In this document: positions 35,970-61,885 of the stretch, piece by piece
Layout: the number at the start of each line of letters is the position of its first letter
Position numbering within the stretch: the first letter of the stretch is position 1
NCBI RefSeq assembly: GCF_963921235.1
Contig: NC_086097.1
Span: forward strand, 148,492,001-148,556,000
DNA length: 64,000 nt
Source: Mobula hypostoma
Lineage: Eukaryota
Reading direction: 5' to 3'
Program-made: the position numbers and the translations under genes
Notes under the pieces: model-generated
Told to the model about the DNA's origin: nothing
Seen by the model: only the letters and a program-made list of their open reading frames with translations
The model's database searches: none

Positions 35970-36139
35970 CAGTTATCAGGCAGGGAACCAGAAAATAAAT
36001 TCACTTTCTTCAGTCAGTCTTGGCTCACTAGTTTCACTCGACTTTGAGTTACATCAGTTATCATGCGGGGAACTGGAAAATAAATTCACTTTCATTTGCC
36101 AGTCTTGGCTCACTCGTTGTACACAGCTTTGAGTTACAG
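35970..36139. repeat. Diverged 85-bp tandem duplication
   Basis: CAGTTATCA.GC.GGGAAC..GAAAATAAATTCACTTTC..CAGTCTTGGCTCACT..CTTTGAGTTACA occurs at 35970 and again at 36055. Confidence 0.85.
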
Positions 36140-37227: not shown

Positions 37228-37269
37228 TAGATAGGGAAGAGGATTTACATTATAATATATGAATGTATG

Positions 37270-37820
37270 AAGTAGAAGCATGTGAATTAGGAGTGGACCC
37301 TTGAAAATAAGACCATGAATATTCAGCCTTTCAGCCCATCCAGTCTGCACCTGCCATGCACCTGATTATGACAGATTTTATTTTTCCTCTCAACCCCATT
37401 CTCCTGCCTTCTTTCTGTAAACTTTGGTGTCCTTACTGATCAAGAACCCATCAACTTCTGCTTTAAATATACCTAATTACTTGGCCTCCACAGCCATCTG
37501 TGAACATGATTTCCATAGATTCATCAGTTTCTGGTCTTGGACTCTCCCACTAATGGAAATATCTTCTCCACATCCACTCTGTGTTAGCATTTCAATATTA
37601 GGTAAGTTTCAATGAGATCCTCCCCCCACCATTCTTTTAAACTCCAGCAAGTAGAGGTCAAGGTCCATCAAACGCTCCTTATACATCAACCTTTTCTTTC
37701 CTGAGATCATTTTCATAAACCTTCTCTGGACCCTCTCTAATGCCAGCACATCCATTCTTAGACATGGGGGCCCAGAACTGCTCACATTACTCCAATTATG
37801 GTCTGACCAACACCTTAAAA
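37270..37820 (-). mobile_element. CR1 3' fragment
   Basis: Reverse complement matches the CR1 C-terminus and 3' UTR seen at 21720-24375. Confidence 0.75.
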
Positions 37821-39602
37821 TCTCTGATATTTGTTAAGCTTATGGCTAATATGATCATTATCTCAAGTCCTCATTCCACTTACTCCTTGTAACCTTCCAC
37901 CATTTTGCTTAGCAAATATCTATCTACCTCCATCTTAAAGACATTCAAAGACTCTGCTTCTTTTCCCTTTGAAGAAGAGAATTATACTGACCTTTGGAAA
38001 GAGACATTTAAATTATTTACCGTTCTTGAAGAATGACTCACATTAGTGACACTAGACCCAAAATACAGGATATTACAATATCCTCATTCTGACCTGGAAT
38101 GAACCAAATACTGTAGATAAAATTCCTTTGCTATAGTTAAAAGTCAAAGTTGAGTTTATTGTTATATATGTGAGTACATGTATGCTCAGTGTTACAACCT
38201 CGGCTCTCAGAAAGTAACACAAAGCTATCAGGCCACAACAGGAATTACAAACAAAAGACATTTATTAAATTAAACTTAAGGTAAAGGGAAAAAGGGTGAT
38301 GTGTGATGTGTGTGGTGTGGTAGTGCTGACTGCAGAATGGGAGGGAGAGAGAGATTGTGGGAGTTGGAGTGGCCTTGTTTTTAAGCAGCCCCCCAGCAGG
38401 TGTCAGCTATGGAAGGGTAATTGCAGGTGTTCTTGGGAACTGCAATGCAGGTTAAGGAGGAAACATAGGCCAGGAAATGCGCAGGACATAACACCCCCAC
38501 CCTTAAAAAGGTTGCTCTAGGGTAACCTACTGCTACTCCAATAATGCATACAGTATGTTCAATAAAGAATATAGGGTGTAAGCAGATGCCAGATACACTT
38601 ACAACCTTGAAAGGGCATCTTCTAGCCCATTGCCCCTTCCACCGATGTGGCAAAGCTTCAGGTCATACCCCTGCAGGAATAAAACCCACTGCACTGAATG
38701 CTGTTTAGAATTCCTCATGCTGCAGAGAAAGACAGGAGGGTTAAGGTCTATACACATACTGAGTGGAAAACAGGAACAAACATAGACATCAAAATGATTC
38801 CAGGCAAGAATAAAGGCTAAAGCCTCCTTCTCTATTGTGGAGTAGTGCTTCTGATGTACCTCAAATAGCACACAGGATGCTCCACGTCCCTCATAAAAGA
38901 CTTATCCATTAGATAAGGATGCATGGAGTTGGGCTTGATGTATTACCATGGATAGAGGATTGGTTAACTAATCCTCTATCCACGAGTTGGGATACATAGG
39001 TGTTTCTCTGGTTGGCAATCAGTGGTGAGCAGTGTGCCACAGGGATCGGTACAGATGACACAACTGTTCACGATATACATTAACAATCTGGAAGAGGAGA
39101 CCGAGTGTAGTGTATCTAAGTTTGCTGATGACACTAAATTGAGTGGAAAAGCAAATTGTGCAGAAGATATAGAAAGCCTGCAGAGAGATATAGATAGGTT
39201 AAGTGAATGAGCACGGATTTGGCAGATGGAGTAAAATTTTGTCGAATGTGAGGTCATCCACTTTGGAAGGAAAAGTGGAAGAGCAGATCGTTATTTAAAT
39301 GGTAAAAAATTGCAGCATGCTGCTGTGCAGAGGGACTTGGGAGTACAGTCGGCCCTCCGTATCCGTGGGTTCCGCATCCGCAGATTCAACCAACTGTGGA
39401 TGGAAAATATTGCACATGAATCACAAAAGGTTGGTTTGCAGGTGCAGCAAGCTATCAAGGAGGCTCATGGAATGTTGGCCTTCATTGCTAGAGGGATTGA
39501 ATTTAAGAGCAGGGAGGTTATACTGCAACTATACAGGGTACTGGTGGTGCTCACCTGGAGTACAGCGTGCAGTTCTGGTCTCCTTACTTGAGGAAAGATA
39601 TA

Positions 39603-39757
39603 AACAACAGGAATTCTGCAGATGCTGGAAATTCAAGCAACATACATCAAAGTTGCTGGTGAACGCAGCAGGCCAGGCAGCATCCATAGGAAGAAGCGCA
39701 GTCGACATTTCAGGCCGAGACCCTTCATCAGGACACGTTTCAGGCCGAGACCCTTCA
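39603..39757 (-). mobile_element. 155-bp Penelope-derived mini-element (hammerhead plus tail)
   Basis: Perfect 14-bp TSD TGAGGAAAGATATA at 39589-39602 and 39758-39771. Near-identical to 49674-49800. Confidence 0.92.
39699..39734 (-). ncRNA. Minimal type I hammerhead ribozyme motif (GAAAU variant)
   Basis: Minus strand reads GUC-CUGAUGA-AGGGUCUCGGCCU-GAAAU-GUC-GACUG. Confidence 0.65.
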
Positions 39758-42399
39758 TGAGGAAAGATATACTGGCTTTGGAGGCAGTGCAGAGGAGGTT
39801 CACCAACTTGATTCCAGAGATGAGGAAGATAGATAATGAGGAGAGATTGAGTTATCTGAGACTGTACTCACTGGAATTCAGAAGAATGAGAGGAGATATT
39901 ACAGAAACATATAAAATTATGAAAGGGATAGATGAGACAGAGACAGGGAACTTATTTCCACTGGTAGGTGAGACTAGAACTCGGGGACATAGACTCAAGA
40001 TTCGGAGGAGTAGATTTAGGATGAAGATGAAGAGGAACTGCTTTTCCCAGAGAGTGGTGAATCTATAGAATTCTCTCCCAATGAAGCAATGGAGGCTACC
40101 TCAATAAATACATTTAAGATAAGTTGGATAGATTTTTGCATAGTAGGGGAATTAAGGGTTATGGGGAAAAGGCAGGCAAGTGGAGATGAGTCCAAGGCTG
40201 AATCAGCCATGATCTCATTGAATGGTGGAGCAGGCTCAACGGGCCAGATGGTCTGCTCCGGCTCCTATTTCTTATGTCCTTATGTGAATCCCTTGGAGGA
40301 CCCCAACCCGACCCCAACATCACTAGCATCAACAGCTAGCTTAAAGGGCCTGCTGAAACCAGGAGCTGCCAGGGCGGCAACATGACTCAGCAACGACTTC
40401 AAATTCTCAAAGGCATGCTAACATGTCTCCATCCAAACGTAAGGAATCTTGGGACTAAGCAGGTTATTTAAGAGTGCAGCAACAGTGGAAAAATTTTGCA
40501 AAAACTTCTTTAATAACCTGTCATCCCGATGAACCATTTCAGCTCTCTCTGGGATACTGGCTGCTGGCACAGTGAAGTTCACAATGGCCTCCTCTGAGAC
40601 TAACTCTTCAAAGGAGACAGAGACAGAGAAAGGTCTCTCTTCTGTTCAATCACTGGCTGTTCACGAGAGGGAAACGCGTGGCCAAACCCTGTTAGATCTA
40701 CATCATCTTTGGCCATACAGGTGTCACAGAAGGCACTATCAGGGAGGTTGTCAGAGCCCTTGCCTTTGCTTTGATCTTTCTTATACATTGCAGGAATAGT
40801 AACACAAACAGGAAAGGTGCCTGGGAAAGTCAGTTCAAGCTCATCCCAGAAGAATCCCCATCACGTTACAACCTGGGCTCTCAGAAAGTAACATGAAGGA
40901 GTCAGGCCACAACAGGAATAACAAACAAAAGATATTTATTAATTTAACGTTTAGGTAAAGGAAAAAAGGGTCCCCAGCAGGTGTTGGCAATGGAAGAGTA
41001 ATTGCAGGTGTCCCAGGGAACTATAACACAGGTTAAAGAGGAAACAGGCCATGAAATGTATAGGACATAACAACAGGTCCAATGAAAAACTTATTTGCAA
41101 CATCACAGCCACATAACATCATATAATCAGCATTCACAAGAAAAACATAAAATAAAATTAGATCAAAAAGAATACAAAGTCCATTTTAGTGCAAAGTGAC
41201 CAAAGTGGTCAAGGTGTTGTAAAACTGTAGTGATAAGGATTGTCCCAGTTCATTCAAGACTGAAGGGAAGTAGCTGTTCTTGAACTTGATGGTGTGGAAA
41301 TTCAGGCTTCTGTATCTCCTGCCCCATGGTAGTTGTGAGATGGCGTGGCCCAGATGGCAGGGATCTTTAAAGATAGATGTTGCATGCGTGAGATAGTGCC
41401 TCATGTATAACCTGCCAGTGCAAGTGATGCATGAGAGCTCCATTTTAACATTTAAGAGAAGCTTGGATAGGTTCATAGATGGTGGGTATATGCAGGGCTA
41501 TGGTCATAGTGCAGGTCAACAGGTGTAGGCAGTTTAAATGCTTCAGTGCAGTCTAGATGGGTCTAAGGGCCTGCTTCTGTGTTGTACTTTTCAATAACTC
41601 TACGACTCTATGATCAATAATCCCACCAACCTGTACTTCTTTGGAATGTTGCCAGGGAGAATGGGGAGCACACACAAACTCCTTTGACAGTGGCAGATTG
41701 AACGCACATCACAGGCACTGTAATGGCATTTAACTGACCACCCTCACAGGCGTGGCACTCCTTGCCCTGATGTGATCATGTAATTGTGACTGCAGCAGAT
41801 GCAGTTATTTTCGTAATTATCAGTCCTGAATCTCATTCACCATGCTCAATATTCCCAGCTGAGGTTCCGTAAAGGAAATTATTCTTTGAACATCAGGTTT
41901 GATAAACTATTGTGCCTTCATTTTCCTCCCTCTTCTTTAAGCGCCTTGTCCAAATTTGTCTGTCCTCTGATCATAGGATACAAAGCATCCTTAGGAGCAG
42001 AGCTGACCCTGCTGCCCCATAGCTTGCCTTGCTGTTCCATTCGACTGTGTTTGATCTTGATCTTAAAAATACTTTCACTCCAGTTCCCCACATTCTCCCA
42101 GCAGAGCCTAACAAAATCTATTTTCAGCTTTGAATCAAAGCTTTCTGAAGAAGGCAATTTTCAAATGTTCACACTGCTCTGAAAAAATATACTGCATTTC
42201 TTAGCCTTAAAGGATACTCATAACCATTTAGACTTTGATCCCAGACTCTAGACTCTGCAACCAAAGGAAACAAACTCCAAGAATCCACCTTCTCAGGCAT
42301 TCTCAGAACCTTGCTTGTTTTAATCAAATTACTTCTTACCTTTCTTGAACCAGTGATCTTAGGCTTATCCTACTCAATATTCAATATTCTGTCCAGTCT

Positions 42400-46499: not shown

Positions 46500-46885
46500 T
46501 ATTTAGAGATACAGCATGGAACAGGCCCTTCTGGTCTACCAAGCCACACCACTCAGCAACACACCTATTTTACACTAGCCTAATCACAGGACAATTTTTG
46601 ATGACCAATTAATCTACTAACCAGTATGTCTGGGAACCGTGTAAGGAAACCAATGCACACAGGAAGAAGGTACAAATTTTCTTAGAAAGGACGTCAAAAT
46701 TGAACTCTGACACCCTGAGCTGTAATAGCGTCGCACTAACTGCTGCACTGCAATGGCACTCCGATTTTGGATGTAGGAGGGAACTCCGAGCCAACTCCAC
46801 ACGCGTGTTGCGGCGGAGGTCAGGATCGAACCCGATTTCCAGAGCTGGGTGGTGGCGGCTCCACTCACTGCCGCTTCACACGTCA
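46500..46885 (-). mobile_element. V-SINE/HE1-like SINE copies (tRNA head, V-domain remnant, CR1-type tail)
   Basis: Minus-strand B-box-like GAGTTCAATT and GGGTTCGATCC, TTTGTACCTTCTTCCTGTGTG..GGTTTCCT, and tail GGGCCTGTTCCATGCTGTATCTCTAAAT. Confidence 0.65.
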
Positions 46886-47579
46886 ACCTGAAATATTGCT
46901 TCGGTGAATATTACAATGTGATTTGATTTTTGTTCCTGACACCTTTGGCTGACCGAACAAACGTTCACTGTGAAACGCAACAAGGCTATAGCAATTCAAA
47001 AAAAAGGAACCTACTAATCCTTGATCAACAATGAAGAAATAATAATGCGACTATATAAGTGTGGTCCACAACCTGCAGCAAAATAAAAATAGCCTCATCA
47101 ATTCTGTCAGAGTCAATGTTTTCAGCTTTGCTAAATTTAGTGGATTAAAAGTAAATCTTTCATTGTAAACTCAGATTCCTGCTTAACCATTTAATTTAGG
47201 TCATTGATTAGTTTCTTGAAGCCTTCTGGGAATCTTGTAAAATTCGCTGAAACAACATTTCAGGTTGAAATGTGAAAACTATCAAAGACTGACCCCACCC
47301 TGGTCTTAGAGACTGAAAATCTATAGGTTTTCATCTAATTACTTCATTGGCACCAATGCAGTCAAGTAAATCAAAAGAAATTAGCAGCCGAAGGCAAGTT
47401 AAACATAATTCTTTGCAACTGTTTAATTCTGAAAGGAAATCTTGAACTGATAGAGAATGGAAAGGTTTTAGGTTCAATCCATAATGAGTGGCGTTTTAAC
47501 CAAACTCAGGCAGAGTAATGGATCAGAACACATTTAACGGTCTTTAGATAGTATTCTGATGAGAGAGGGGAAAGCATGG

Positions 47580-47782
47580 TGGACCATATAGCCTACTGTA
47601 TATTATGGGACTACTTTTATGTTGTAGTAACATGTCGTTGAGCATGCGCTATTAGGCGCGTATTGATCTGTACATGTGTGTTCAGTTCGGTTTCAGTCAG
47701 TGAAAAAACCCTGTTAACTTAGCTCCTGTCTCCAGCGTTTTCATTTACAGCTTTGTTGTGTAACCCGGCCACATACACAACA
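47580..47782 (+). repeat. 5' LTR (203 bp)
   Basis: TG..CA termini; about 9 substitutions and 2 indels versus the 3' LTR by manual alignment. Confidence 0.95.
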
Positions 47783-47785
47783 AAT

Positions 47786-47796
47786 TGGCGATGAGG
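47786..47796 (+). promoter_or_regulatory. Primer binding site, tRNA-Ser(GCT)-type
   Basis: TGGCGATGAGG, 3 nt after the LTR; one CpG-type change from TGGCGACGAGG. Confidence 0.75.
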
Positions 47797-48113
47797 TTAA
47801 TGAACCTTCATCCTATCGGAGCGCCGTGTTTTAATTGATAACGACACTTGGAAGAAGAGCGCAAGGAACGAGGCAAGGAGTGGGAGAAGGAGTTCGCGTG
47901 TCTGAAAGGAAGCAAGAGCACAGTCAGAGCCACAGAACGTCCAGCTGAGACCACAGCCAGCGCTGACCCCAGGGGCTGAGGGTCTGACTGCCCCAGAAGG
48001 AAGATAAAAAGGTGCGACACACGCATCTAGACGGAGTGTGCTCGGGATGCTAGCAAAAAGGTCACGTGAGTCAAAAAAAAACAAGGAACCATGGCTAAAT
48101 TAACATAACAAGA

Positions 48114-48955
48114 ATGGCGTTGTTTGGAACCATTACAGCTTTTGATAGTGGCATTGAAGACTGAGCAACTTACATTGAAAGAGTGGAGTTATATTGTGAT
48201 TGTAACGGTGTTGATGATGAAAAGAAAGCCCGTGTCTTACTCAGTGTTATGGGAGCAAAAACATACGACCTGCTACGGAGCTTGTTAACCCCTGAAAAGC
48301 CAGCTGACAAAACATTCAAGCAAAGAGTAGACACCCACCAACAGCACTTAATCCCCAAACCACTGGTTATTGCTGAAAGATTTAAATTTCATAAAAGGAG
48401 TCAGAACAAAAATGAAAGCATTTCTGAATATTGTGCTGAATTGCGCAAATTATCAGAACATTGTCAATTTGGAGCTGGTCTATCAGACGCATTGTGGGAC
48501 AGGTTAGTGTGTGGCATGCACTGTAAAACCACACAGAAGAAGCTCCTGTGTGAAAAAAACCTTACATTCGAGAATTGCAATATCAACAGAAACAGTGGCA
48601 GGGGGTGCTTCCAAGATACAAAAAAAAATCTCTGGAATATGCCACAAATAAAATGTCACTGAACAGAAAGGAAGGAAAGAAATGTTACCGTTGTGGGAAC
48701 AGGTCACATGACCCTGATGATTGTTGGTTCAAAGATAAAGAATGCAGAAACTGTGGCAAACAGGGCCACATTGGCAGAGTATGCAAGGCTAGTAAACAGC
48801 AGAAAAAGGACAAAATACAGAGAAACAAGAAACCCCAGAAAGGAAAATACAACAATGTGCACAAAATGAAAGAAAGCAATTCTGATGAAAGTGACTCAGA
48901 CAAAAGTGAATTGTCTTGTCTGCAACTTCACAGCGTGGAAGAGACAGATGATTGA
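48114..48955 (+). pseudogene. gag: gag with two CCHC zinc knuckles (premature stop at 48162, frameshift near 48575)
   Basis: MALFGTITAFD..ED*ATYIERV, ESISEYCAELRKLSEHCQFG..DRLVCG, CYRCGNRSHDPDDC and CRNCGKQGHIGRVC. Confidence 0.92.
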
Positions 48956-49765
48956 AGAGTAATATGGATCACTCCACAAGTGGCAGGCGTGAGACTGAAA
49001 ATGGAGTTGGGCACAGGCTCAGCTTTAACAGTAATATCTGTACACGACTACAAACGACTGTTTTCTCACATACCACTGAAACGAACTAAACTACTGCTAA
49101 AGACTTAGACAGGACAGAAAGTGCGTCCCAAAGGTAAAATTAAAGTGACAGTGACCTACGGAGACAAAACACAGCAGCTGAACCTTTATGTACTGAGAAA
49201 TGGAGGACCACTGTTGCTGGGACGTGAATGGCTCAGGAAAATTCAGTTGGATTGGCACACCATCAAGGCACTAAATGTGGCAGTGAAGGCGGGCAGCAAG
49301 GCTACATCTGAGAGACTGTCACAAATACTTGCTGACTCTGAGGAAGTGTTCATGAAAGGAATAGGAACACTTCGGGGCATGAAAGCAAAGATTGTGATTG
49401 AGGAAAACGCATGTCCAAAATTTGACAAAGCCAGGCCAGTGCCATATGCAATCTGTCCCACAGTAGAGGCAGAGCTGAAAAATCTGGAGCAGACTAGGGT
49501 CCTGTCAAAGGTGGATTGGAGTGAATGGGCCACACCTGTTGTTCCAGTGATGAAGAAAACCCCCAGCACAAAACCAGGAAAACCAAGCGAGGTGTGCATA
49601 TGTGGTGACTTTAAAGTGACTGTTAACCCAGTTCTCTGCACAATACAGTATCCCCTACCCCATATTGAGGACAACAGGAATTCTGCAGATGCTGCAAGTT
49701 CAAGCAACACACATAAAAGTTGCTGGTGAACGCAGCAGGCCAGGCAGCATCTGTAGGAAGAGGTG

Positions 49766-49803
49766 CAGTCGACGTTTCAGGCCGAGACCCTTCGTCAGGA
49801 CTA
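49766..49803 (-). ncRNA. Minimal type I hammerhead ribozyme motif, intact core
   Basis: UAGUC-CUGACGA-AGGGUCUCGGCCU-GAAAC-GUC-GACUG; helix I is UAGUC/GACUG and helix III is the palindrome ACGU. Confidence 0.82.
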
Positions 49804-50362
49804 ACTGAAGGAAGAGTGAGTAAGGGATTTGAAAGTTGGAGGGGGAGGGGGAGATCCAAAATGATAGGAGAAGACAGGAGGGGGAGGGATGGAGCCAAGA
49901 GCTGGACAGGTGATAGGCAAAAGGGATACGAGAGGATCATGGGACAGGAGGTACGGGAAGAAAGACGGGGGGGGTGACCCAGAGGATGGGCAAGAGGTAT
50001 ATTCAGAGGGACAGAGGGAGAAAAAGGAGAGTGAGAGAAAGAATGTGTGCATAAAAATGAGTAACAGATGGGGTATGAGGGGGAGGTGGGGCATTAGCGG
50101 AAGTTAGAGAAGTCGATGTTCATGCCATCAGGTTGGAGGCTACCCAGACGGAATATAAGGTGTTGTTCCTCCAACCTGAGTGTGGCTTCATCTTTACAGT
50201 AGAGGAGGCCGTGCATAGACATGTCAGAATGGGAATGGGATGTGGAATTAAAATGTGTGGCCACTGGGAGATCTTGCTTTCTCTGGCGGACAGAGCGTAG
50301 ATGTTCAGCAAAGCAGTCTCCCAGTCTGCCCTGCTTTCTCTGGCGGACAGAGCGTAGATGTT

Positions 50363-50782
50363 CTCCCTCCTGGCACTTATCCGTGTAAGCGGAACAAGTG
50401 CTACACATGCCCTTACCTTTCCTCCCTTACCACCATTCAGGGCTCCAAACAGTCCTTCCAGGTGAGGCATCACTTCACCTGTGAGTCGACTGGGGTGATA
50501 TACTGCGTCTGGTGCTCCCGATGTGGCCTTTTATATATTGGCGAGACCTGACGCAGACTGGGAGATCACTTTGCTGAACATCTACGCTCTGTCCACCAGA
50601 GAAAGCAGGATCTCCCAGTGGCCACACATTTTAATTCCACACCCCATTCCCATTCTGACATGTCTATCCACGGCCTCCTCTACTGTAAAGATGAAGCCAC
50701 ACTCAGCTTGGAGGAACAACACCGTATATTCCATCTGGGTAGCCTCCAACCTGATGGCATCGACTTCTCTAACTTCCACTAA
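50363..50782 (+). pseudogene. Penelope Cys-rich linker plus GIY-YIG endonuclease (one internal stop)
   Basis: LPPGTYPCKRNKCYTCPY..FTCESTGVIYCVWCSRCGLLYIGET*RRLGDHFAEH..VATHFN..EEQHRIFHLGSLQPDG. Confidence 0.9.
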
Positions 50783-51075
50783 TGCCCCACCTCCCCCTCG
50801 TACCCCATCTGTTACTTATTTTTATACACACATCCTTTCTCTCACTCTCCTTTTTCTCCCTCTGTCCCTCTGAATTTACCCCTTGCCCATCCTCTGGGTC
50901 CACCCCGCCCTTGTCTTTCTTCCCGGACCTCCTGTCCCATGATCCTCTCGTATCCCTTTTGCCTATCACCTGTCCAGCTCTTGGCTCCATCCCTCCCCAT
51001 CCTGTTTTCTCCTATCATTTTGGATCTCCCCCTCCCCCTCCAACTTTCAAATCCCTTACTCACTCTTCCTTCAGT

Positions 51076-51113
51076 TAGTCCTGACGAAGGGTCTTGGCCT
51101 GAAACGTTGACTG
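51076..51113 (+). ncRNA. Minimal type I hammerhead ribozyme motif (GUU cleavage triplet)
   Basis: UAGUC-CUGACGA-AGGGUCUUGGCCU-GAAAC-GUU-GACUG. Confidence 0.78.
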
Positions 51114-53708
51114 CACCTCTACCATATTGAGAACATTTTTGTTTCCCTGTCAGGAAATCGTTTTGACCCAGGCTTACCTCCAAATGGAAATCGAGGAAGC
51201 ATCCAAGTAATATTTGACAATGAATATCCACGAAGGACTTTACCAGTCTAACGGGTTGGTGTTTGGGATAGCATCATTGCCTGCAATCTGGCAAAGGGCA
51301 ATGGACCAGGTCCTGCAGGGGATTCCAGGAACTCAGTGTTACCTGGATGACATCATTGTCACCGGCAAAGATGATGACGAACATCTTTCTAACCTAAAAC
51401 AAGTGCTCACCAGGTTACGAGAATATGGGCTCAGAGCTAATCGACAGAAATGTGAGTTTTTCAAAAAGGAAATCTCATACTGTGGGCATGTGATCAACAA
51501 GGATGGCTTACACATGTCTCAAGACAAGATAGAAGCGGTGCTTAAGGCACCACCACCTGAAAATGTGTCTCAGCTGAGAGCATATCTTGGTCGTGAACTA
51601 TTACCACAAGTTCTTGTCTAACTGATCCACAGTCCTACACCAACTAAATGCACTATTACAGACAAAGACACAATGGAAGTGGACTGAGAGGTGTGAGAAT
51701 GTGTTTCAAGAAACTAAAAGACTCATAACTTCAGAAGGGGTGCTCGCACACTTTGACCCCTCCTTACCTATCCGACTAGCTTGTGATGCCTTGTCCCATG
51801 GATTAGGAGCTGTGTTATCACACAAGTTTCCAGATGGCTCCAAAAGACCAATAGCCTTTGCTTCAAGAACACTAACTTCATCTGAACGCAACTATGCACA
51901 GATTGACAGAGAGGCCCGAAGCCTCGTGTGGGGAGTCAAGAAATTCAGTCACTACTTGTATGGCCAGAAGTTTACTCTGTTGACTGACCATCAGCCCCTC
52001 CTGTCAATCTTCAATCCAAGAAAAGGCGTTCCAGTGATGACAGCACAAAGGCTGCAGCGATGGTCCCTTTTCTTAGGAGGTCACAGGTATGACATTGAAC
52101 ACAAGGGGACCAAGCAACATGGCAATGCAGATGGTTTGTCATGTTTACCACTGCCCACTTCTGATCAGCAGAGGTTTTACACACAACGATAGTCGAACAA
52201 TTACCAGTAACAAACAGCCTCATTGAGAGGGAAATACGCAATGACCGTATGTTGTCAAAAGTGTATGACATCACAGTAAAGGGATGGCCAGCACGGGCTA
52301 ACACGTTGTTTCCAGCCTTCGCAGCGAGGAAGGAGCAGTTGTCAGTGTGTTGGGGAACACTAAAGTGTGGTTCACGAGTTGTGATCCCTCCCAAGCTACG
52401 CACTAGAGTGCAGGAGGAACTGCACGAGGGGCACCTGGGTACCGTGAAGATGAGAAGTCTTGCCTGTGCCTATGTGTGGTGGCCAGGAATCAATAAACAG
52501 ATTGAGGACTTGACCAAGGACTGCTCTGGATGTCAAAAGATTCAGAACACACCACCACAAGCCCCTCTTCATCCGTGGCAGTGGCCCTCATCACCATGGC
52601 AATGAGTGCACATTGACTTTGCTGGACCATTATGGACGCTATATTTTTAATTGCCGTTGATGCACATTCCAAATGGCCAGAGGTCATCAAAATGAAGACA
52701 ACTGGATCGGAAAAGACTCTTACAGTTCTGAGGACCATGTTCGCCAGGAATAGCACACCAGAACAAATCTGCACAGACAATGGACGACAATTTGTCTCTG
52801 GAATCAAGCACTTTACAACTGTCCCTTACCATCCATCCACAAATGGCTTGGCAGAAAGATTTGTGCAGACATTCAAGAAAGTCATCAAGGCAATGGACAG
52901 CGAAAGTCGACTACTGAAACACAAGATAGACAACTTCCTCCTTGCCTATTGTAATGCAGTACACACAACCACTAATCAGACCCCAGCGACGATGTTCCTG
53001 AACAGGAACCTGAGGTCCCACGTGGATCTTCTTAAACCAGATGTACGGCATGATGTGGAAAACAGACAGTTTCAAACACTTGAATGCTAAGTCAACACGG
53101 AACTTCAGTGTGGGACAGTCAGTTCTTGCATGTGATTACCGGACTGAAAAGTGGCAGCCGGGTAAAATTTCTGCCATAGACCGACCACTAATGTAGAGAG
53201 TACAGGTGCGAGAGAACGTATGGAGACGTCATGTGGATCAAATCCTGGATGCTCAGGTGAAAACTCAACAACAACTTGCCCGGACTCCCATGACACATAG
53301 AAGCACATCATGTGGATCAAGTCCTGAATGCTCAGGTGAAAAACAGAACAGCACCTTGCCCTGACTCCACGGACATAGAAGCAAACACTCCTGATGTGAC
53401 CACATCAGCCTCGCCCACAGATAAGCCTGTCATTAGTGCTGAGGACCCACCTGATGTACCTGTGGAGACTAACTCCCCAAAGCAAATGTTTCAGGGCAGA
53501 TGTTACCCGGAGAGGCAGAGAAGAACCCCCCCCCCCCGCAGAGACTTGACTTATAATTTTATAATTATTATTATTATTACGTTACTTTGTTATAATTTGA
53601 TATTATTAAGTTACTAAGTAAACAATTGGTAGGTGTTTGTATGTTAAGGGTACACATTTTTGTTTAGCGTAGTGCCCCAGTAAAAAAAAGTTGATACACT
53701 ATTAAAAT

Positions 53709-53720
53709 AAAAGGGAGGAG
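53709..53720 (+). promoter_or_regulatory. Polypurine tract
   Basis: AAAAGGGAGGAG immediately before the 3' LTR. Confidence 0.9.
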
Positions 53721-53921
53721 TGTACCATATAGCCTACTGTATATTATAGGACTACTTTATGTTGTAGTAACACGTCATTGAGCATGCGCTATTAGGCGCG
53801 TATTGATCTGTACGTGTGTGTTCAGTTCAGTTTCAGTCAGTAAAGAACCCTGTTAACTTAGCTCCCGTCTCCAGCGTTTTCATTTATAGCTTTGTTGTGT
53901 AACCCGGCCACATACACAACA
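53721..53921 (+). repeat. 3' LTR (201 bp)
   Basis: TG..CA termini; direct repeat of 47580-47782. Confidence 0.95.
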
Positions 53922-55987
53922 CATGGCAAAATTTTTAAGCAATAGAATCATGGATTCATAAAGCTGCACAGCATGGACACAGGCCCTTTGGCGCAGCTCA
54001 TCCATACTGGCTAAATTGTCTGTCCAAGTTAGTCTATCCGGTCACTTTCCTGATTTTGGCCCATATCCCTTTAAAACTTTACGTTCTATGTACCTAGGGA
54101 GTCCTTGATTGAAACTCAGCAGCGCCAGGGAGCACTGTGAACGGAGCAGTGTAGTGGGCTGGGGAATGTAGAAAGCCTGTGATTAGGAAGGTGAATGGTG
54201 GCTGCAGTCAGGAGACTGGAGGGGAGAGAATGTGATTAGACGGGCTGATGGAAATTACCATCAGAAGAGTGGAGAGGAAATAACCTGGAATAGGAAATGA
54301 AGCCTTAGTCTGGTGGGATTAGTAAGGGTGGCAAGGAACACAACTGGAAAGATCATATCAGGTGGATGCTGAACTAGGGAAAACATCTCCTTATAGGATA
54401 GGTGGATGATGAAATGAGCATTATGTGCCTTTGATAGCCAATAGGACAATTTACCATTAAAGGTATTCAGAATAAAGATCCCAAAAGCAAACAAAAAGGA
54501 TTTACCTGGAAAATAGGTAACACTGAGTCCCTTCTTAAATATCCCATGTGTCGTTTCACTATTGGATTCCATAGCAGTAGCTCAAACAGCTAGGAGAATG
54601 CCTTCAAGATCCAGTGTGGGGCTACACTCTACATTCAAGCCTCATGCAGCCTGTCAAGCACATATTCCTGCTGGAATATTGTCAAGCATTCTCTATTAAT
54701 TGATGCCACTTCCAAGCATCCAGCAGCTGCTACACATGTTCGGTGCAAAAACGACTGTTACAATTTCTTGAAGTATGCTGTGCAGAAGCAGAATTACTGA
54801 AAGCTTTCAGCAAGTGGCTTTCAGTTTTAAAAGAAATATTATCATATTTGTTGCATAAAAATGGTGCACAATAAATGATGGAATTAATAGCTTTATAAAG
54901 ACATATTTGCCACCATTTGACAGCATTTCCCAAGTTACTTTTGCTTATAATTTTTCCCTGAGGCTAATAGGTGAAAAACCTATTAAACTCTTTTCACCCA
55001 TGACTGTGCCCCTGCCTATGCCACCAACACCATCAGCAAATTTGCAGATGACACCACAGTGATTGGATTAATGACAAAAGACAATGAAACAGCATACAGA
55101 GAGGAGGTGCAGAAACTATATAAATGGAGCAATAACTATAACCTCTCACTGCAATACATGGGCAGGTACAATATTTGGGTTTAAAATAGCCTTTCTTTGA
55201 TTTCAGAGCTTTCCTTTTAAATCTCAGCTTTAATTCTTGATGCTATTTTACATTTATTCATAGTATTTTATGACATGGGCATGTGCAATATTTGAATGGG
55301 GCAGCACTGTTTCTCTTTATTTTAGTGTTGTTTGTTTTTAATTCAGTTGTAACTTGAGCTTTAAGTCTCTCCAAGATGACACCATTGAACAATATGACCA
55401 ACAGTGATATTCTGCAGACAGTTCACAAAACTACTTTTACTTCTTCTTTCAAATATGCTTTTACTACTAAGCTGCATAGATTGGAACCTGTGATTTACAA
55501 ATTGATGATGTGTTTTTGGGCCAGTTGAGCGATCTGGCGCTTTGCTTTATCTGAGGGATTTCGGTGAGGTTTTAAACCAAATGCACAGCCTGGAGACAGT
55601 GAGCAAGCCCATGATCCACTCCATTACTTCTCTCCGATTAAGTCATTGAGCAAGGTTAAAGATGACAAGGACAAGAGTGGAGGATGGGTGGGTATTCGGC
55701 GCTGGCTGCCTGCATTTGTCTAGTTTTCCTCTCCCTCTCGCTAGCTGCTGTTGGAGGAAAGTCTAGGGATCCACGTTGCAAGGATTGACCAGCAAGGTTA
55801 TGGACTCATTTTGGGGAACTTTGAGGTTCATGTTGCATGTGTTTCTGGATTCAGGAAACTCTTTTGTTTTTGCTGTTTTGTGAGCAGTTTGACTGGGCGG
55901 ACTGGGGTGTTTTGGCGAAGAATAGCTCTGAAGTCTGCAGTGGGCTAGTGGCGCAGCACTGGACTGAACTAAACTGAATACTGTGGA

Positions 55988-56174
55988 TCCCTCCCCCTCC
56001 TGTCTTCTCCTATCATCTTGCATCTCCCCCTCCCCCTCCAGCTTTCAAATCCCTTACTCACTCTTCCTTCAGTTAGTCCTGACGAAGGCTCTCGGCCTGA
56101 AACGTCGACTGCGCCTCTTCCTATAGATGCTGCTTGGCCTGCTGCGTTCACCAGCAACTTTGATGTATGTTGCT
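55988..56174 (+). mobile_element. 187-bp Penelope-derived mini-element (UTR end, hammerhead, shortened tail)
   Basis: Perfect 13-bp TSD TGAATACTGTGGA at 55975-55987 and 56175-56187. Near-identical to 50990-51120 and to the 39603 and 49674 tails. Confidence 0.92.
56074..56111 (+). ncRNA. Minimal type I hammerhead ribozyme motif, intact core
   Basis: UAGUC-CUGACGA-AGGCUCUCGGCCU-GAAAC-GUC-GACUG. Confidence 0.82.
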
Positions 56175-56969
56175 TGAATACTGTGGACTCCTAGTTTGAT
56201 GTTAATATCCCATGTGTTCACTTGCTTTTTGCCATTTGCACAATTTGTTTCTTTTCACACATTGGGTGTTTGATGTTTTCTTGAATGGGTTCTAAGGTGT
56301 TTCTTTGTTTCATGGCTGCCGGTGGGAGGACAAATCCCAGAGCTGTATTTTGTCTACATACTTTGATAATAAAGCAACACACACAAAATGCTGGAGAAAA
56401 TCAGCAGGTCAGGCAGCATCCATGGAGGTAAAGAAACAGTCAACTGTTAGGTCCAGGACCCTTCTTCAGGACTGCAAAGGAAAGGAAAATACACCAGAAT
56501 AGAAACTAGAAGGTGATAGGTGAAGTCAGGTGGGTAGAAAGGTAAAGGGCTGGAGAGGAAGGATTCTGATAGGAGAAGAGTGTGGGCCATAGGAGAAAGG
56601 GAAGGAAGAGAGGAACCAGGGGGAAGTGATAGGCAGATGAAAAGAAGTAAGAGGCCAGAGTGGGGAATAGAAAAGGAGGGGGGGGGGATTTTTTTTTTAC
56701 CGGAAGGAACAATCCATCAAGTTGGAGACTGCCCAGATGGAATATAAGGTGTTGATCCTTCACTCTGAGGGTGGCCTCAACTTGGCAGAAGAGGAGGTTA
56801 TGGACCGACATGTCAGAATGGGAAAGGGAATCAGAATGTTTGGCCCCTAGAACGTTCTGGTTTTGGCGAATGGAGCGGAGATGCATAATGATGCGGTTCC
56901 CTAATTTATGAGGAGGCCACGTTGGGAGCACCAGACACATTAGATGACCCCAGCAGATTTGCCCGTGAA

Positions 56970-57650
56970 AAAAGAAGGGGGAGGAGAAGATGGCGGTGCA
57001 GTGCAGCGCATGCGGCCGCTCCGAAATGATATCATATGTGTTAACTAGGGGCCGTGCACAATCCTGATTTGATGGAGACAGCCATGAGAAGCACGGAGGA
57101 ACACCTGGAGAAACTTCTGAAATGCCTGTTTCCCTGCCGCTGCTACTGTGCGATCGATCGAGAATCTCCAGAGGGGAAGGCCTCAAATTCTTGGCTTTGC
57201 CTATCGCCTGTTGCCGGGGCCAGGGTCAAAGTGCTCAGCAGAGATAGTGCTCGGTGTCGGACGGCTGGTCAGAGGCTCGAAGTTTTCGGACGGACTCAAG
57301 AGTCGGCTGTGGTCGGGTGCTTCTAGGATGCTGCATCGGCAAGTTTGCGGCGCTTGAAGCTCATGGCAGGAAGAGTTTTTTCTTCCTTCTACCGTCTGCG
57401 TGAGATGATGGGACTTTCAAGAGACTTTAAGACTTTTTTTTTTACCATGCCCATGGTCTGTTCTTTATCAAATTACAGTACTGCTTTGCACTGTTGTAAC
57501 TATATGTTATAATTATGTGGTTTTTGTCAGTTTTTCAGTTGGTTTGCCTTATGTTTCTGTGACATCATTCTGGAGAAACCTTGTATCATTTCTTAATGCA
57601 TGCATTACTATATGACAATAAAAGACGACTGTGTGTCCTCATAATCTAAA
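56970..57650 (+). mobile_element. Young CpG-rich non-coding retroposon (AAGATGGCGG head, GACAATAAA tail)
   Basis: Interrupts the GIY-YIG region between ..GTGAA and ATGTTG.. . Many CpGs retained, no Pol III boxes and no LINE ORF. Confidence 0.7.
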
Positions 57651-58418
57651 AAAATGTTGTGTCACCTGGAAGGACTGTTTTGAGCCCTGAATGGAGGTGA
57701 GGGAGGAGGTGTCTGGGCAGGTGTAGTACTTTGGCCGCTTGCAGGGATAAGTTCCGGGAGGGAGATTAGTGGGCAGGGATGGACAGACATGGGAATCACA
57801 GAGGGAGCGATCCCTGCAGAAAGCAGAGGGTGGAGGAGGCAAAGATATGTTCGGCGGTAGATCCCTTTGGAGATGGCGGAAGTTGCGGAGAGTGATGTGT
57901 TGGATGTGAAGGCTCATGGGGTGGTAGGTAAGGACAAGAGGACCTCTATCACTGTTAAGGCAGCGGGAAATGGGATGAGTGCAGAAGTTGGAGAAATAGA
58001 GGAAATGCGGGTGAGGGCAGCATCAATGGGGGAGGAAGGGAAATCCCGTTCTTTGAAGAAGGAGTATATCGCTGATGTCCTGGCAAGGAAACCCTCATCT
58101 GGAGAATAGATGTGGTGGAGATGAATGAACTGATAAAAGCAAATAGCATTTTTACAGGAGGTAGGGTGGGAAGAGGTATAGTCAAGATAGCCACGGGAAT
58201 TGGTAGGTTATCAAAGATGTCAGCTGTCAGTTTGTTTCCAGAGATGGAGACGGAGGTATTGAGAAAGCGGAGGGAGGTGTCAGAAATGGACCGAGTGAAT
58301 TTAAGGGCAGAGTGGAAATCGGAGGCAAAGTTGATGAAAATAACAAGAGCATTATTACGAAAATGATAGGAGCATTATTACGGAAAGCTTCGCACATGGA
58401 TTGTTCCACATAGCTACC

Positions 58419-59310
58419 TGTTACATAACCGGCAACAATGAATATCAATCGAGACAGGTTATATAAAAACAACCAAACATTTATTAAACACAGATAAATG
58501 ATAAGGTAAAAAAACCACGAAAACTTTAACCGGAAGTTAACCGATATGCAGCCATTCAACACCCCGTCACTCGGCACTGGTTCTTAAAGTGTTAAATGCT
58601 AAAACAGTTCTTAAAGCGATGAAGTCAAATATAGTTCTTAAAGTGATAACTTCAAAAGTCCAACTGATTTACATGTTCAATTGGAAGAGACTTCTCTGGA
58701 GAAGGATTTCTTTACAGATGCAACTTTCCTGCTGGTTCTGTCCACAGGATTCACAATGCTGAAAATAAGCAGTTTAAAACGACTGACCTTAAATTCTTTT
58801 AGAGAGAAAGCAAACCATTGCATGAACTCCTTGCTCTTTTTGGCAAGAGTTATCTCCGATGCAGGTAGCTACTCCTCCAATGAAGCCTCAATAAGGTTGA
58901 TTCTTTATTAAACTGCCAAACGATGCCGACTCTTCTCAATCCTTTGATCTTGTACTTCGATAAATTCTTCACTCTCCCTTCTACTTTTGGAATTGAGTAA
59001 ATCAACACATCTAGCAAAAATTTCCAGTCCAATAATATCATATTTTGCAATAGAACGCAATACTCTGTTTTACAAATGAAACTGCGTCACAAAAACAAAC
59101 ATGCAACAGAAACGGAGGCACAGCACATTCTGCCTGGAAATCTACAAACTAAAAACCCAACTGCGTCACCTGGGTCGACCCTTATATAGTCATGGTGCAC
59201 ATGTCATCACGTGACCTCACATCGGCGGGAAAATCACATCAGGTGACCTCCAAAAGATGATTACATCATTCTCACAAAACAAAAACACAGATCTCCTTGA
59301 GCATGTAACA
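58419..59310 (-). mobile_element. Solo LTR, 892 bp
   Basis: TGTTACAT..ATGTAACA inverted termini; minus-strand TATATAA near 59182 and AATAAA near 58480. Interrupts the Penelope RT; TSD degenerate. Confidence 0.8.
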
Positions 59311-60019
59311 CGAACAAAAAAGCAAACTTAGCTGGGACCCATGCAGGTGCCCATGGCTACCTCTTGAGTCTGGAGAAAGTGGGAGAAGCCAAAGGAAAAA
59401 TAGTTGAGCGTCAGGACCAGTACTTTCAATTCAGGAATGTATTTTCAATCTTTTGGATCTTCAAAGATGTCATTCTAAATAACTCAGATGTCATTGTGTT
59501 TTGCACTGAATGGAGCAGCACTGCAATCTCATTGTCCTCAGCTAAACAACTACCTAATGAACTAAAAGGAAAATGTTGTCCTTTGTTCCATCTTTCTTTA
59601 AACGATAAAGTTTATCATGCAACACTGCAAATCCACAGATTTATATTGAGCTGAAGTATATATCAGGAAAACACAAATGAAGAAATCAAACCCCAGATCT
59701 CACTTATAGGTGTAAAATGGAAACCTATGTAAGTCTGACGAATCAACACCGCCAAATCACCAACAGCTGCAGAGAATGTTGAGGCCTAATGCCTGTTGAT
59801 GCTTGAACTGAGTTAGTAAAGGGAGAGTACAGGGTTTGGATTGGCTCTGCTCAGATTCATAATATCTCCCAACAAAAATAAAGCACAAAGGTTCCATCCA
59901 CCCTGGACACTCTGTCATTCCAATCCACTCCAATCAGGCAGAAGATGCAAAAATCTAATAGCACATCACCAGCTCCTATTGAGCTTGCTGAGGAGGACAT
60001 CCTATCATGACAGTTTGAC

Positions 60020-61885
60020 CTAGTTAAATGGCGATTGACCCTCAGCTCATCATTCCATCCTCACGGCCCCTTGTCCCAATCATCTAGGATCTTGAATACC
60101 AGATTCGCCAAGCCCTACAGCACAAGCCTGACACACCTGACAACTGCACGTACGTGCTGGCAGCTGTGCGCTCTGAGGCAGTCCAGTGGGCCCACTTCTC
60201 ACCCCCCTTCTCTCTAAGTGCACAACGGACCCTGGATTTTCTGCGATACTTGTTCTGGTGGCCCACCATGATCTCAAGGTGCACATTAGATCATTGCTGC
60301 CTACCCTTAATATGCCCAGTCCAATTCCTTGAACCAGCAGCTCTTTGGGCTCCTGCGGCCCCTACCAGTCCCTTGATGCTTATGACATCACATTGCCATG
60401 GATTTCATCATGGGTTTGCTGCCTTCTGATGGAGCCACAGTGATCATGACAGTGGTGAACTGGTTCTCCAAGGCAGCCTACTTCCTTGCCCTCCCCAAAT
60501 TTCTGCAGCCACTGAGTCAGCAAAACTGGTTCTCCAACAAATAGTTTGCCTCTACCGTTACTCTCAGGCCATTGTGTTGGGCAAGGGCCCACAATTCGTC
60601 TCCCACTTCTGGTGGGCCTTCTTCTCCCTCCTCAACACCTCAGTGAGTTTGTCCTCTGGCTAACTTCAGCAGACCAACAGTCAATCAGAAAGAGCCAAAT
60701 GGAGAAGGTTCTGCGGTGCTTCACTGCCCCTAACTCTTCCATATGGAAGAAGCACCAGCTCTGGGCCAAGCTGTCCCACAATCTACACACCTCCTCTGCT
60801 CAGGAATATCACCCTTTGAAGTGCTTCATGGCTACAAACCCCCATTCTTCCACACCAGCAGTGGAAGTCCTGTCCGGGCCCTGGTTCACCATTGCTGGAA
60901 TGCTTGGAAGAGGGCATAGAGCCTGGGGATTATGTCTGGCTGTCCCTACACACTGACTCCTGCAAGCTCTTGCCCTGGTTCATTGGTCCTTTTAAGATTA
61001 GCCGTTGTATCAACCCTGCCTCTAGCTGCCATCCTCCCTCAGGATCACATCTACATTCCATGTGACCTGCCTTAAGCCTGTTGTCCATGGATTACTCAAT
61101 CCACCTGAGCCTACACCTCCAGAACCAGTGATGGTGGAAAGTAGTGCAGTGTACACAGTTTGGCATTTGATGGATTCATGTTGTTGCGGGCAGGGTGTGT
61201 GGTACCGGGTTAACTGGGAAGGGTGCATCCCAAAGGAGAAGTCTTAGGTGCTGTCCAGTTTCTTCTTAGATCTATTGCTCATTGAGGAGTTCCTGCAGAC
61301 CCATCCAGATTGTCTAGGGCCAACGGTTTCTGGCCGTAGGATGGGTGAGGGTGGGTGTGTGTGTGGTTCCTGTCGGGCCTGCACAGGAATCTCCACCCAG
61401 CTAACAGAAGTCATCTGCCCAAACACAAAATACTCCGCAGATGCTGGGGTCAAAGCAACACTCACAACACACTGGAGGAACTCAGCATGGCGGGCAACAT
61501 CTGTGGAAACGATCAGTCAACCTGACGAAGGATTCTGGCCTGAAACGTTGACTGATCATTTCCACAGATGCTACCTGACCTGCTGACTTCCTCCAGCGTG
61601 TTGTGAGTAAAGTCACCTGCCACTCATTTCCATCTTATCGCCTGCAGCCCACTTAAACCCTGCTCTCATCCACAGTTCCTTTTCACCCACTGAACCAGCC
61701 AGCCTCAACTATTTGCTCTTAGCCTTTGGTTGCCTCATTGTCTTGTTGAGATAGGTATCTGTACTCTTCCATTTTGTGCCCCTTGTGGTTTGTTATTTTG
61801 CAGTTTATTATTAACCCTCTCGCTCAGCGCTGAATCATCTCCACTGCTCAGCATTTGGGTCAACCCTCCTCTACATTTCCTGACA
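60020..61885 (+). mobile_element. Chromovirus-type Gypsy 3' remnant (integrase, chromodomain, PPT, LTR at about 61360-61885)
   Basis: [41 protein letters not shown] and YTVWHLMDS..YRVNWEG..EKS*; LTR ends CCTGACA. Confidence 0.85.
61421..61608. mobile_element. Fold-back Penelope-tail mini-element with the hammerhead core as its loop
   Basis: Arms at 61460-61521 and 61547-61608; loop CTGACGAAGGATTCTGGCCTGAAAC. TSD AAGTCA(T/C)CTGCC at 61408-61419 and 61610-61621. Confidence 0.88.

What the first reader, a model, noticed from the sequence alone, without database searches (positions are those of the whole stretch)
49674..51121. 1.45-kb inverted-repeat Penelope insertion with a hammerhead at each outer end, inside a Gypsy RT gene
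Seen: 49759-50328 is the reverse complement of about 50553-51120 (arms of about 570 bp with high identity) around a ~220-bp spacer coding the Cys-linker and GIY-YIG start. One TSD (14 bp, 1 mismatch) brackets the whole unit, so it arose in one event. The left arm carries the full ~95-nt tail, whereas the right arm stops 12 nt after the cleavage site. A short 34-nt re-copied segment (about 50330-50363, copying 50274-50306) sits at the inversion point, suggesting template jumping. Established: inverted pseudo-LTR arrangements are known for Penelope. Inference: transcription in either direction yields long dsRNA with a ribozyme near its 3' end, a possible endo-siRNA or ADAR substrate.
Basis: partly seen in the sequence, partly recalled or inferred. 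Interest (0 to 1): 0.72.

Follow-up and report, generated by a model that had tools for sequence, protein, structure and literature searches.

The report
Dead head-to-head Penelope retroelement insertion
Two truncated copies of a Penelope-type jumping gene sit head-to-head inside one 14-base duplicated target in what is likely a ray genome; this layout is already described as typical for these elements, was likely made when both cut DNA strands primed copying, and its ribozyme motifs would be locked up by base pairing in any read-through RNA.

Summary
The structure is real. Arms 49759-50329(-) and 50553-51120(+) differ at 23 of 565 columns. One 14-bp TSD (13/14) brackets the unit inside a decayed Gypsy RT, and 34 nt are re-copied at the pivot. 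It is a Neptune-type Penelope-like insertion, likely in a ray.

It is also the textbook layout: an inverted 5'-truncated copy under one TSD, with a tail at one end (Craig 2021; Arkhipova 2013). A miniature second case lies at 61421-61609, and this scan noted the layout before in this and another genome.

Each arm holds sequence the other lacks, so two separately primed cDNAs joined by 2-nt microhomology fit best. Arm divergence (4.1%, CpG-rich) matches the host LTR pair (4.5%), so the unit is old and neutral, and not an assembly fold-back.

The functional reading is weak. In a read-through hairpin 37-39 of 39 hammerhead bases pair with the other arm, minimal hammerheads are reported to need dimers, and no transcript was shown. 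Penelope inverted-repeat siRNAs and Penelope editing are already published.

Small extras: the right end (+12) is not the family's main 3' end (+67 to +72), and 2 of 14 family-polymorphic sites hint at two templates. Reads could not test the junction.

The parts
49660..49673 (+). left copy of 14-bp target-site duplication (Gypsy RT coding sequence)
   Evidence: 13 of 14 identical to 51122-51135; null maximum score 6 in 300 trials vs 10
49674..50329 (-). left arm: 5'-truncated Penelope-like copy (C-terminal GIY-YIG part, pyrimidine-rich 3' region, hammerhead, 97 nt past the cut); 3' end points outward; 3-nt microhomology with target (49671-49673)
   Evidence: sister copy at 39604 continues to match into the TSD
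49674..49704 (-). outer ~30 nt beyond the family's commonest 3' end: the likely optional 'tail', present on this arm only
   Evidence: table 7: strongest shown loose-end piles at 49699-49704 in three runs; solo copy 55988-56174 ends there too
49766..49804 (-). minimal type I hammerhead motif (5-bp helix I, 3-bp helix II, palindromic helix III core), GUC triplet, predicted cut 49771/49770
   Evidence: motif inspection against the description in PMC4209133; no Rfam hit
50330..50363 (-). 34-nt re-copied segment at the pivot, same orientation as the left arm, a 57-nt jump back; carries the family base at 50331 where the left arm has a private change
   Evidence: (50274 other letter in 91-100% of family depth)
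50362..50363 (.). 2-nt microhomology at the inversion point (4 of 5 bases if a mismatch is allowed)
   Evidence: loose end at 50362; sister copy at 57765
50362..51120 (+). right copy: 5'-truncated Penelope-like copy, longer 5' reach, ends 12 nt after the cut site
50364..50552 (+). spacer found only in the right copy: CX4CxxC linker and GIY-YIG start, premature stop at 50549-50551
50366..50782 (+). decayed GIY-YIG endonuclease coding stretch (premature stop; conserved Arg changed in both arms; conserved Asn lost in the right arm by a 6-bp deletion)
   Evidence: (89% identity to a Mobula hypostoma protein, E 3.2e-75)
51075..51113 (+). minimal type I hammerhead motif of the right arm, triplet decayed to GUU, predicted cut 51108/51109
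51122..51135 (+). right copy of the TSD; 51121 is one base that matches neither element nor TSD; 2-nt microhomology with the element
47580..53921 (+). host: decayed Gypsy-type LTR retrotransposon (LTRs 47580-47782 and 53721-53921, 5-bp TSD, zinc knuckle, RT, RNase H, integrase; many stops and frameshifts)

Best explanation
This is one old, dead insertion of a Neptune-type Penelope-like retrotransposon, two 5'-truncated copies head-to-head under a single 14-bp target duplication, likely made when the endonuclease cut both target strands 14 bases apart and each cut end primed its own reverse transcription near the RNA 3' end. The top-strand primer would have started at about +97 to +100 past the hammerhead cut (3-nt microhomology), copied 656 nt, jumped back 57 nt and copied 34 nt again. 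The bottom-strand primer would have started at about +12 (2-nt microhomology) and copied 759 nt. The two cDNA 3' ends would then have been joined through a 2-nt microhomology and filled in. Since then both arms have decayed as methylated neutral DNA at the pace of the host LTRs. The hammerheads are passengers of the element's 3' end; in a read-through RNA they are predicted to be sequestered in the duplex. Shown: anatomy, TSD, divergence, decay. Inferred: priming order, jump, joining, methylation, lack of function.
For: - Each arm has sequence the other lacks: the left has 85 nt more at the 3' end (49674-49758), and the right has the 189-nt spacer in sense on the top strand. Neither is a plain fold-back copy of the other's cDNA.
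- Both outer junctions are element 3' ends with short target microhomology, like the solo copy at 55988 (5 nt).
- TSD lengths in the window: 14 (focal), 13, 14, 12 by script (4 of 4 units tested), and 15 at 18329 (by eye).
- Purified anole PLE protein cleaves and extends both strands, starts internally at two sites, and is predicted to be a dimer (PMC11167929).
- The inverted 5'-truncated copy plus one-sided tail is stated to be the typical layout (PMC8557442; PMC3846280, 9-10-bp TSD).
- A second, miniature outward-facing unit with a 12-bp TSD lies at 61421-61609.
- Divergence: arms 23/565 vs LTRs 9/201, Fisher p 0.84; 10 of 32 CpG-site columns vs 13 of 533 others.
- Linker CX4CxxC, two Cys between GIY and YIG, and two His are present.
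- The family is very abundant: 227,587 contigs laid in run X1.
Against: - The published alternative, self-priming on an antisense template (PMC3846280), also yields a long arm with the loop and a short arm with the full tail, and this one locus cannot exclude it.
- The +12 end is not among the 18 loose-end rows shown (2,215 more not shown). It may be a later deletion or a rare start, and base 51121 fits neither element nor target.
- The microhomologies are short (2-3 nt) and could be chance.
- The in vitro data are for a Poseidon-clade element, not Neptune, and found no homology between start site and target.
- No read or contig shown bridges the pivot (24 pieces shown, 299,566 more not).
Confidence: 0.7

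Rival explanations
1. Same one-event insertion, but made by self-priming or fold-back on one (antisense) template: the template's end folds back, makes an abortive 34-nt start, slips and copies through to the tail, and the hairpin is then opened and inserted. The arms would be identical at birth.
For: - Proposed for head-to-head PLE units in PMC3846280 (passage).
- The long arm holds the loop and the short arm holds the full tail, as that model would give.
- The arms agree at 12 of 14 family-polymorphic sites, and their divergence is no larger than that of the host LTRs.
Against: - There is no palindrome at this pivot, which was the paper's main argument.
- The arms carry different common family alleles at 50050 and 50059 (2 of 14; P about 0.02-0.11 under later mutation alone).
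- Both-strand target priming has since been shown in vitro.
Confidence: 0.2
2. The hairpin is a functional or selected source of endo-siRNA or an ADAR substrate, with the hammerhead trimming its 3' end.
For: - A read-through RNA would form a ~570-bp duplex with 9 perfect stretches of 21 bp or more.
- Penelope inverted repeats give siRNAs in Drosophila (PMC3681739).
- Penelope is heavily edited in lizard, and a cartilaginous fish has abundant editing (PMC5625713).
- The unit lies downstream of a Gypsy LTR.
Against: - The hammerhead is sequestered (37-39 of 39 bases), and a single minimal motif was inactive in vitro.
- The arms diverge like neutral LTRs, with CpG decay.
- The host element is dead.
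- No host-gene domain was found in 167 open frames of 75 aa or more (of 183; 16 lying in or across the insert left out), though short exons would be missed.
- The run guessed to be RNA shows no excess of A>G/T>C places (11/13) over DNA runs (11/14, 11/12); this is weak, family-level evidence.
Confidence: 0.05
3. Two independent insertions at the same site, or a later rearrangement, produced the inverted pair.
For: - Independent copies of this subfamily are about as alike as the arms: left arm vs 55988 copy 5 differences in 131 nt, left vs right 4.
- The family is extremely abundant.
Against: - One TSD brackets the whole unit, with no target sequence or second TSD at the pivot.
- The same layout recurs at 61421-61609 and in the literature.
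Confidence: 0.04
4. Assembly or library fold-back artefact.
For: Such structures trouble short-read assemblies (PMC8557442). No shown contig bridges the pivot.
Against: - The arms differ at 23 sites and 3 indels with a CpG-decay spectrum, each arm has private sequence, and a 14-bp TSD interrupts a Gypsy RT in register.
- A fold-back chimera would be expected to give identical arms and no TSD (established knowledge).
Confidence: 0.01

Closest known systems
Canonical EN+ Penelope-like insertion unit (Craig et al. 2021, PMC8557442, Fig. 2 legend; passages)
   Same: Inverted 5'-truncated copy adjacent at the 5' end, giving inverted repeats flanking the unit; tail at one end only; hammerhead in the terminal repeat; CX2-5CxxC linker and CCHH motif as in Neptune/Nematis.
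   Different: Here both copies are truncated inside the endonuclease, so there is no RT and no direct pLTR pair. The arm-length difference at the 3' end is 85 nt, not 30-40.
Adineta vaga Pen2a/Pen2 insertions (Arkhipova et al. 2013, PMC3846280; passages)
   Same: Secondary insertion into another retroelement, inverted terminal repeats, one TSD (9-10 bp), optional tail on one inverted repeat, head-to-head arrangement.
   Different: Longer TSD (14 bp), no palindrome at the junction, a re-copied 34-nt segment instead, and a different clade and host.
Anole Poseidon element PAc in vitro (Frangieh et al. 2024, PMC11167929; parts 1-2 of 4 read)
   Same: Both strands cut and extended; internal RT start at two sites that bound the tail; hammerhead cleavage not needed for insertion.
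   Different: PAc is Poseidon clade, prefers AT-rich targets and starts without target homology. This target is not AT-rich, short microhomologies are seen, and a third end (+12) occurs.
Minimal type I hammerheads of PLEs (Cervera and de la Pena 2014, PMC4209133; passages)
   Same: Extra base between positions 9 and 10.1, short helix II, palindromic 15.2-16.2, no stable helix III.
   Different: The two motifs here lie on opposite strands, so one transcript cannot supply the dimer partner in cis.
L1 twin priming (recalled, from no call)
   Same: Both nicks prime cDNA, and the products are joined by microhomology under one TSD.
   Different: In L1 the second primer lands internally, so the inverted piece is upstream sequence and overlaps little. 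Here both primers start at the 3' end, giving a 570-bp inverted duplication.

Membership tests
EN+ Penelope-like element | C-terminal GIY-YIG endonuclease with CCHH motif (two Cys between GIY and YIG) | tested here: met
   VIYC..CSRC..LYIG and two His; Pfam GIY-YIG E 0.0038, below curated cut-off; 16 homologues, best E 3.2e-75
EN+ Penelope-like element | PLE-type reverse transcriptase upstream of the endonuclease | tested here: inconclusive
   Absent from this truncated unit. Homologues continue upstream into a YIDD-type RT stretch, and related RT pieces lie at 57651-59432; no RT tree was built.
EN+ Penelope-like element | Hammerhead motif in the terminal (pseudo-LTR) region | tested here: met
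   motif and helix I/II pairing at 49766-49804 and 51075-51113; not detected by Rfam
EN+ Penelope-like element | Direct or inverted terminal repeats, 5' truncation, one-sided tail, TSD | tested here: met
   against PMC8557442 and PMC3846280
Neptune clade | CX2-5CxxC linker upstream of a C-terminal GIY-YIG (shared with Nematis, absent in Penelope/Poseidon) | tested here: met
   CX4CxxC at the start of P0001; definition
Neptune clade | RT phylogeny separating Neptune from Nematis | not tested
   No labelled reference set was fetched; Neptune is preferred on recalled host range
Minimal type I hammerhead ribozyme | Self-cleavage (as dimer or protein-assisted) | not testable with these tools
   Folding predicts sequestration in the read-through hairpin; monomer folds are no better than shuffles
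Non-LTR retrozyme | Tandem direct units each with a complete same-strand hammerhead, non-coding | tested here: not met
   Two opposite-strand motifs and endonuclease coding sequence; definition in 10.64898/2026.07.22.740005
Hairpin endo-siRNA / ADAR substrate locus | Long duplex potential | tested here: met
Hairpin endo-siRNA / ADAR substrate locus | Read-through transcript, phased small RNAs or editing at the locus | tested here: inconclusive
   one search was saturated by family copies, and no locus-specific piece was shown; no small-RNA data

The most novel reading that the evidence does not exclude
Head-to-head Penelope units are built from two separately target-primed cDNAs copied from two different template copies (two RNAs on a dimeric enzyme, or two repeats of one tandem RNA). 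The junctions preserve telomerase-like jump-back realignments, one of which in this window (39735-39758) lands within one base of the hammerhead cut. Ray genomes, with huge numbers of such units, would then be a natural record that decides between double priming and self-priming and shows ribozyme-cut RNA ends being used in vivo.
Probability: 0.25. Interest if true: 0.5.

Novelty: new member of a known kind. Interest (0 to 1): 0.2.

Why it matters
As a single locus it matters little: a dead, typical insertion, nested in a dead Gypsy element. Its use is as a clean data point on an open question. Craig 2021 says the way PLE tandem/inverted structures form is still undefined. This unit has private sequence on each arm, microhomology at all three junctions and a re-copied segment, which is what double target priming would leave. 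A genome-wide census in rays, where the family is extremely abundant, could test that against self-priming. If such units lie in introns they would be ADAR substrates like inverted Alus, but that is a class effect already reported for Penelope in lizard.

Tried and rejected
- Own-genome search: no genome is held, so there is no genome-wide count of inverted units and no empty-site search.
- Rfam: 0 gathering hits in 64 kb; 2 chance hits in the unit.
- Monomer folds of four hammerhead-bearing pieces: z 0.11, 0.71, -1.62, -0.41, no support from folding alone.
- Read test of the pivot on 49400-50552 (left flank, left arm, pivot, spacer; right arm and right junction not included). X1, X5 and X9 were swamped by family copies (227,587, 188,554 and 13,814 contigs; the tool warns that counts were incomplete for X1 and X5). 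No shown piece bridges the pivot, and X21 gave 0 reads. Inconclusive. X9 is only guessed to be RNA, so it is no evidence of expression. Four of 24 listed runs were laid.
- ADAR imprint in the arm differences: none (A/G 7, C/T 9 of 24).
- Gene conversion in the outer part of the arms: 4/191 outer vs 19/374 inner differences; not tested formally, left open.
- Host-gene context: only transposon-type domains, plus one ALKBH8_N hit at 7683-7919, in 167 frames.
- Bacterial promoter/terminator scan: at chance and irrelevant for a vertebrate.
- Other inverted pairs in the window (24546-25151, 4239-6302, 29599-40277, 46875-47276) do not match the Penelope queries and were not counted.
- Retrozyme reading rejected (membership table).
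- Literature: 'Penelope' + 'twin priming' + 'inverted' returned 2 papers with one Penelope mention each, seen as listing only. Searches were the other searches. [quoted passage not shown]
- Look-ups of earlier findings by sequence, near place and a second word set returned nothing.
Full report
Observation. A self-comparison of the window gives 49756-50329 against 51123-50553 at 94.3% over 577 columns. The core arms differ by 23 substitutions in 565 columns plus 3 indels and lie 223 nt apart. A 14-bp duplication (49660-49673 / 51122-51135, 13 of 14) brackets the unit; the same search at 300 random position pairs never scored above 6, against 10 here. The target is the RT region of a decayed Gypsy-type element at 47580-53921, with two LTRs, a 5-bp TSD and zinc knuckle, RT, RNase H and integrase pieces. 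RT coding reaches the left TSD copy and resumes at the right one.

What the insert is. The right copy (50362-51120, +) codes a CX4CxxC linker and a GIY-YIG endonuclease with the CCHH motif. Read with X at its premature stop, it is 89% identical to a Mobula hypostoma protein and 82% to a Hypanus sabinus protein (16 hits among 116 candidates), so the genome is likely a ray's. The linker marks Neptune or Nematis rather than Penelope/Poseidon (PMC8557442, passages); Neptune is preferred on recalled host range, and no RT tree was made. The left arm (49674-50329, -) is a shorter copy of the same 3' region. Both are dead: the conserved Arg before the first His is changed in both arms by CpG decay on opposite strands, and the right arm has lost the conserved Asn by a 6-bp deletion (that these residues are catalytic is and recall). 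Each arm ends in a minimal type I hammerhead motif, with GUC on the left and GUU on the right. Rfam does not detect them. The family is very abundant: 227,587 contigs of one run lie on the stretch, with summed depth about a thousandfold above the Gypsy flank (the tool warns this is no copy number).

It is the standard layout. Craig et al. 2021 state that an inverted 5'-truncated copy often lies at the 5' end, giving inverted repeats around the unit, and that a 30-40-bp tail is often at one end only (PMC8557442, passages). Arkhipova et al. 2013 show such units with 9-10-bp TSDs, one nested in another retroelement, and call head-to-head the most frequent arrangement (PMC3846280, passages). In this window a sister subfamily gives a miniature outward-facing unit at 61421-61609 with a 12-bp TSD (11 of 12). 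Solo copies have TSDs of 13 and 14 bp and 15 bp (18329, by eye). Earlier scan notes report the same layout in this genome and another; these are unchecked and are not counted as support.

Age and artefact. Arm divergence (23/565; non-CpG 13/533) matches LTR divergence (9/201; non-CpG 4/181), Fisher p 0.84, and 10 of 32 CpG-site columns differ. The insertion thus likely followed the Gypsy insertion closely, and both have decayed neutrally. Diverged arms, private sequence on each arm and an in-register TSD make an assembly fold-back very unlikely. The read test was inconclusive: the runs were saturated with family copies, none of the 24 pieces shown bridges the pivot (299,566 more not shown), and the raw-read run gave 0 reads.

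Mechanism (inferred). The left arm has 85 nt at its 3' end that the right lacks, and the right has a 189-nt spacer that the left lacks. Neither can be a simple fold-back of the other's cDNA. Both outer junctions are element 3' ends with 3-nt and 2-nt matches to the target, as in the solo copy at 55988 (5 nt). The pivot has a 2-nt overlap (loose end at 50362). This is what two target-primed cDNAs, one from each nick, joined end to end would leave. A purified anole PLE cuts and extends both strands, starts internally at two sites that bound the tail, and is predicted to be a dimer (PMC11167929, parts 1-2 of 4 read). The 34-nt segment is a 57-nt jump back. It keeps the family base at a site where the left arm has a private change, so that change is likely later. 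Jump-backs recur: a 24-nt re-copy in the solo unit at 39604-39757, and 8 of the 12 joints shown table 5c go backwards (360 more not shown). The rival is self-priming on an antisense template, which also puts the loop on the long arm and the tail on the short one. Against it: there is no palindrome at this pivot, and the arms carry different common family alleles at 2 of 14 polymorphic sites (50050, 50059; P about 0.02-0.11). That count uses 18 of the 40 rows shown table 3, those inside the arm overlap (69 more rows were not shown). Four were set aside because the family carries the other letter at 83-100%. The two sites are 9 nt apart, so one short conversion tract from a paralogue could explain them. 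It is a hint, not a result.

The ends. The strongest shown loose-end piles of family contigs lie at 49699-49704 in three runs (+67 to +72 from the cut; 18 rows shown, 2,215 not). The copy at 55988 ends there; the left arm and the 39604 copy end at about +97 to +103. The ~30 nt between these is likely the published optional tail. The right end at +12 is neither, and base 51121 matches neither element nor target. A rare internal start or a later deletion are both open.

Function. A read-through RNA would fold into a ~570-bp duplex (MFE -1245.6 kcal/mol; 9 perfect stretches of 21 bp or more). But the arms overlap through the hammerheads, so the one motif in sense has 39 of 39 (plus) or 37 of 39 (minus) bases paired to the other arm, against -5.8 kcal/mol for the ribozyme fold. 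The antisense copy would be transcribed first. A single minimal PLE hammerhead showed no cleavage in vitro and dimers only weak cleavage (PMC4209133, passages), and cleavage was not needed for insertion in vitro. No transcript of the locus was shown, and no host-gene domain was found nearby in 167 of 183 open frames of 75 aa or more, apart from one ALKBH8_N hit at 7683-7919 (short exons would be missed, so an intronic position is not excluded). siRNAs from Penelope inverted repeats (PMC3681739, passages) and heavy editing of Penelope in lizard (PMC5625713, passages) are already reported. It is not a retrozyme as defined in 10.64898/2026.07.22.740005 (part 1 of 5 read).

Verdict. This is a new member of a known kind, interest 0.2. 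The boldest reading not excluded is double priming from two template copies with jump-back realignment, testable by a genome-wide census (probability 0.25, interest 0.5). In seven paper searches I saw no explicit statement of it in what I read, but older primary papers and all supplements were not read.

Noticed in passing
window 39589-39771: Solo Penelope 3' piece (minus strand, 39604-39757) with a perfect 14-bp TSD and a ~24-nt re-copied segment whose end lies one base before the hammerhead cut (U16.1), as if RT jumped onto a ribozyme-cleaved RNA end. Single case; could be chance.
   Followed up: partly
window 61408-61621: Miniature outward-facing inverted unit of a sister subfamily, 12-bp TSD (11 of 12), pivot at the hammerhead; the left arm begins about 3 nt before the cut site and has the longer tail.
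   Followed up: partly
window 55975-56187: Solo 5'-truncated copy of the same subfamily (95% to the left arm), perfect 13-bp TSD, 3' end at the family's main end with 5-nt target microhomology.
   Followed up: yes
window 18311-18432 (approximate): Short sister-subfamily piece with a 15-bp AT-rich TSD seen by eye; its 5' end lies inside the hammerhead.
   Followed up: partly
window 56372-59432 (-) and 33346-33800 (+): Older Penelope-like copies: one with RT and endonuclease pieces split by insertions, one endonuclease-only piece.
   Followed up: partly
window 50330-50363: The 57-nt jump keeps the endonuclease frame (19 codons), so the re-copied segment and left arm read as one open frame on the minus strand; 1 in 3 by chance. 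In both jump-backs of the window the new segment begins with a repeat of the last bases copied.
   Followed up: no
window 24546-25151; 46875-47276; 4239-6302; 29599-30939 vs 38892-40277: Other inverted repeats (75-83% identity) unrelated to the Penelope queries; the first two look like DNA-transposon remnants with terminal inverted repeats, the others like oppositely oriented old LINE pieces (impression, not tested).
   Followed up: no
window 7683-7919; 8333-8620; 38602-38901; 60820-61062: Pfam hits outside the finding: ALKBH8_N (likely LINE-derived, recalled), Tc3 transposase HTH, a second LTR-element RNase H, and an SH3_Tf2-1 piece.
   Followed up: no
window 49671-49753 (-): The RNA past the hammerhead cut is predicted to fold into a 10-bp outer stem with an inner hairpin; the three observed 3' ends (+12, +67 to +72, +97 to +103) fall just before, inside the 3' arm of, and just after this structure.
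   Followed up: partly
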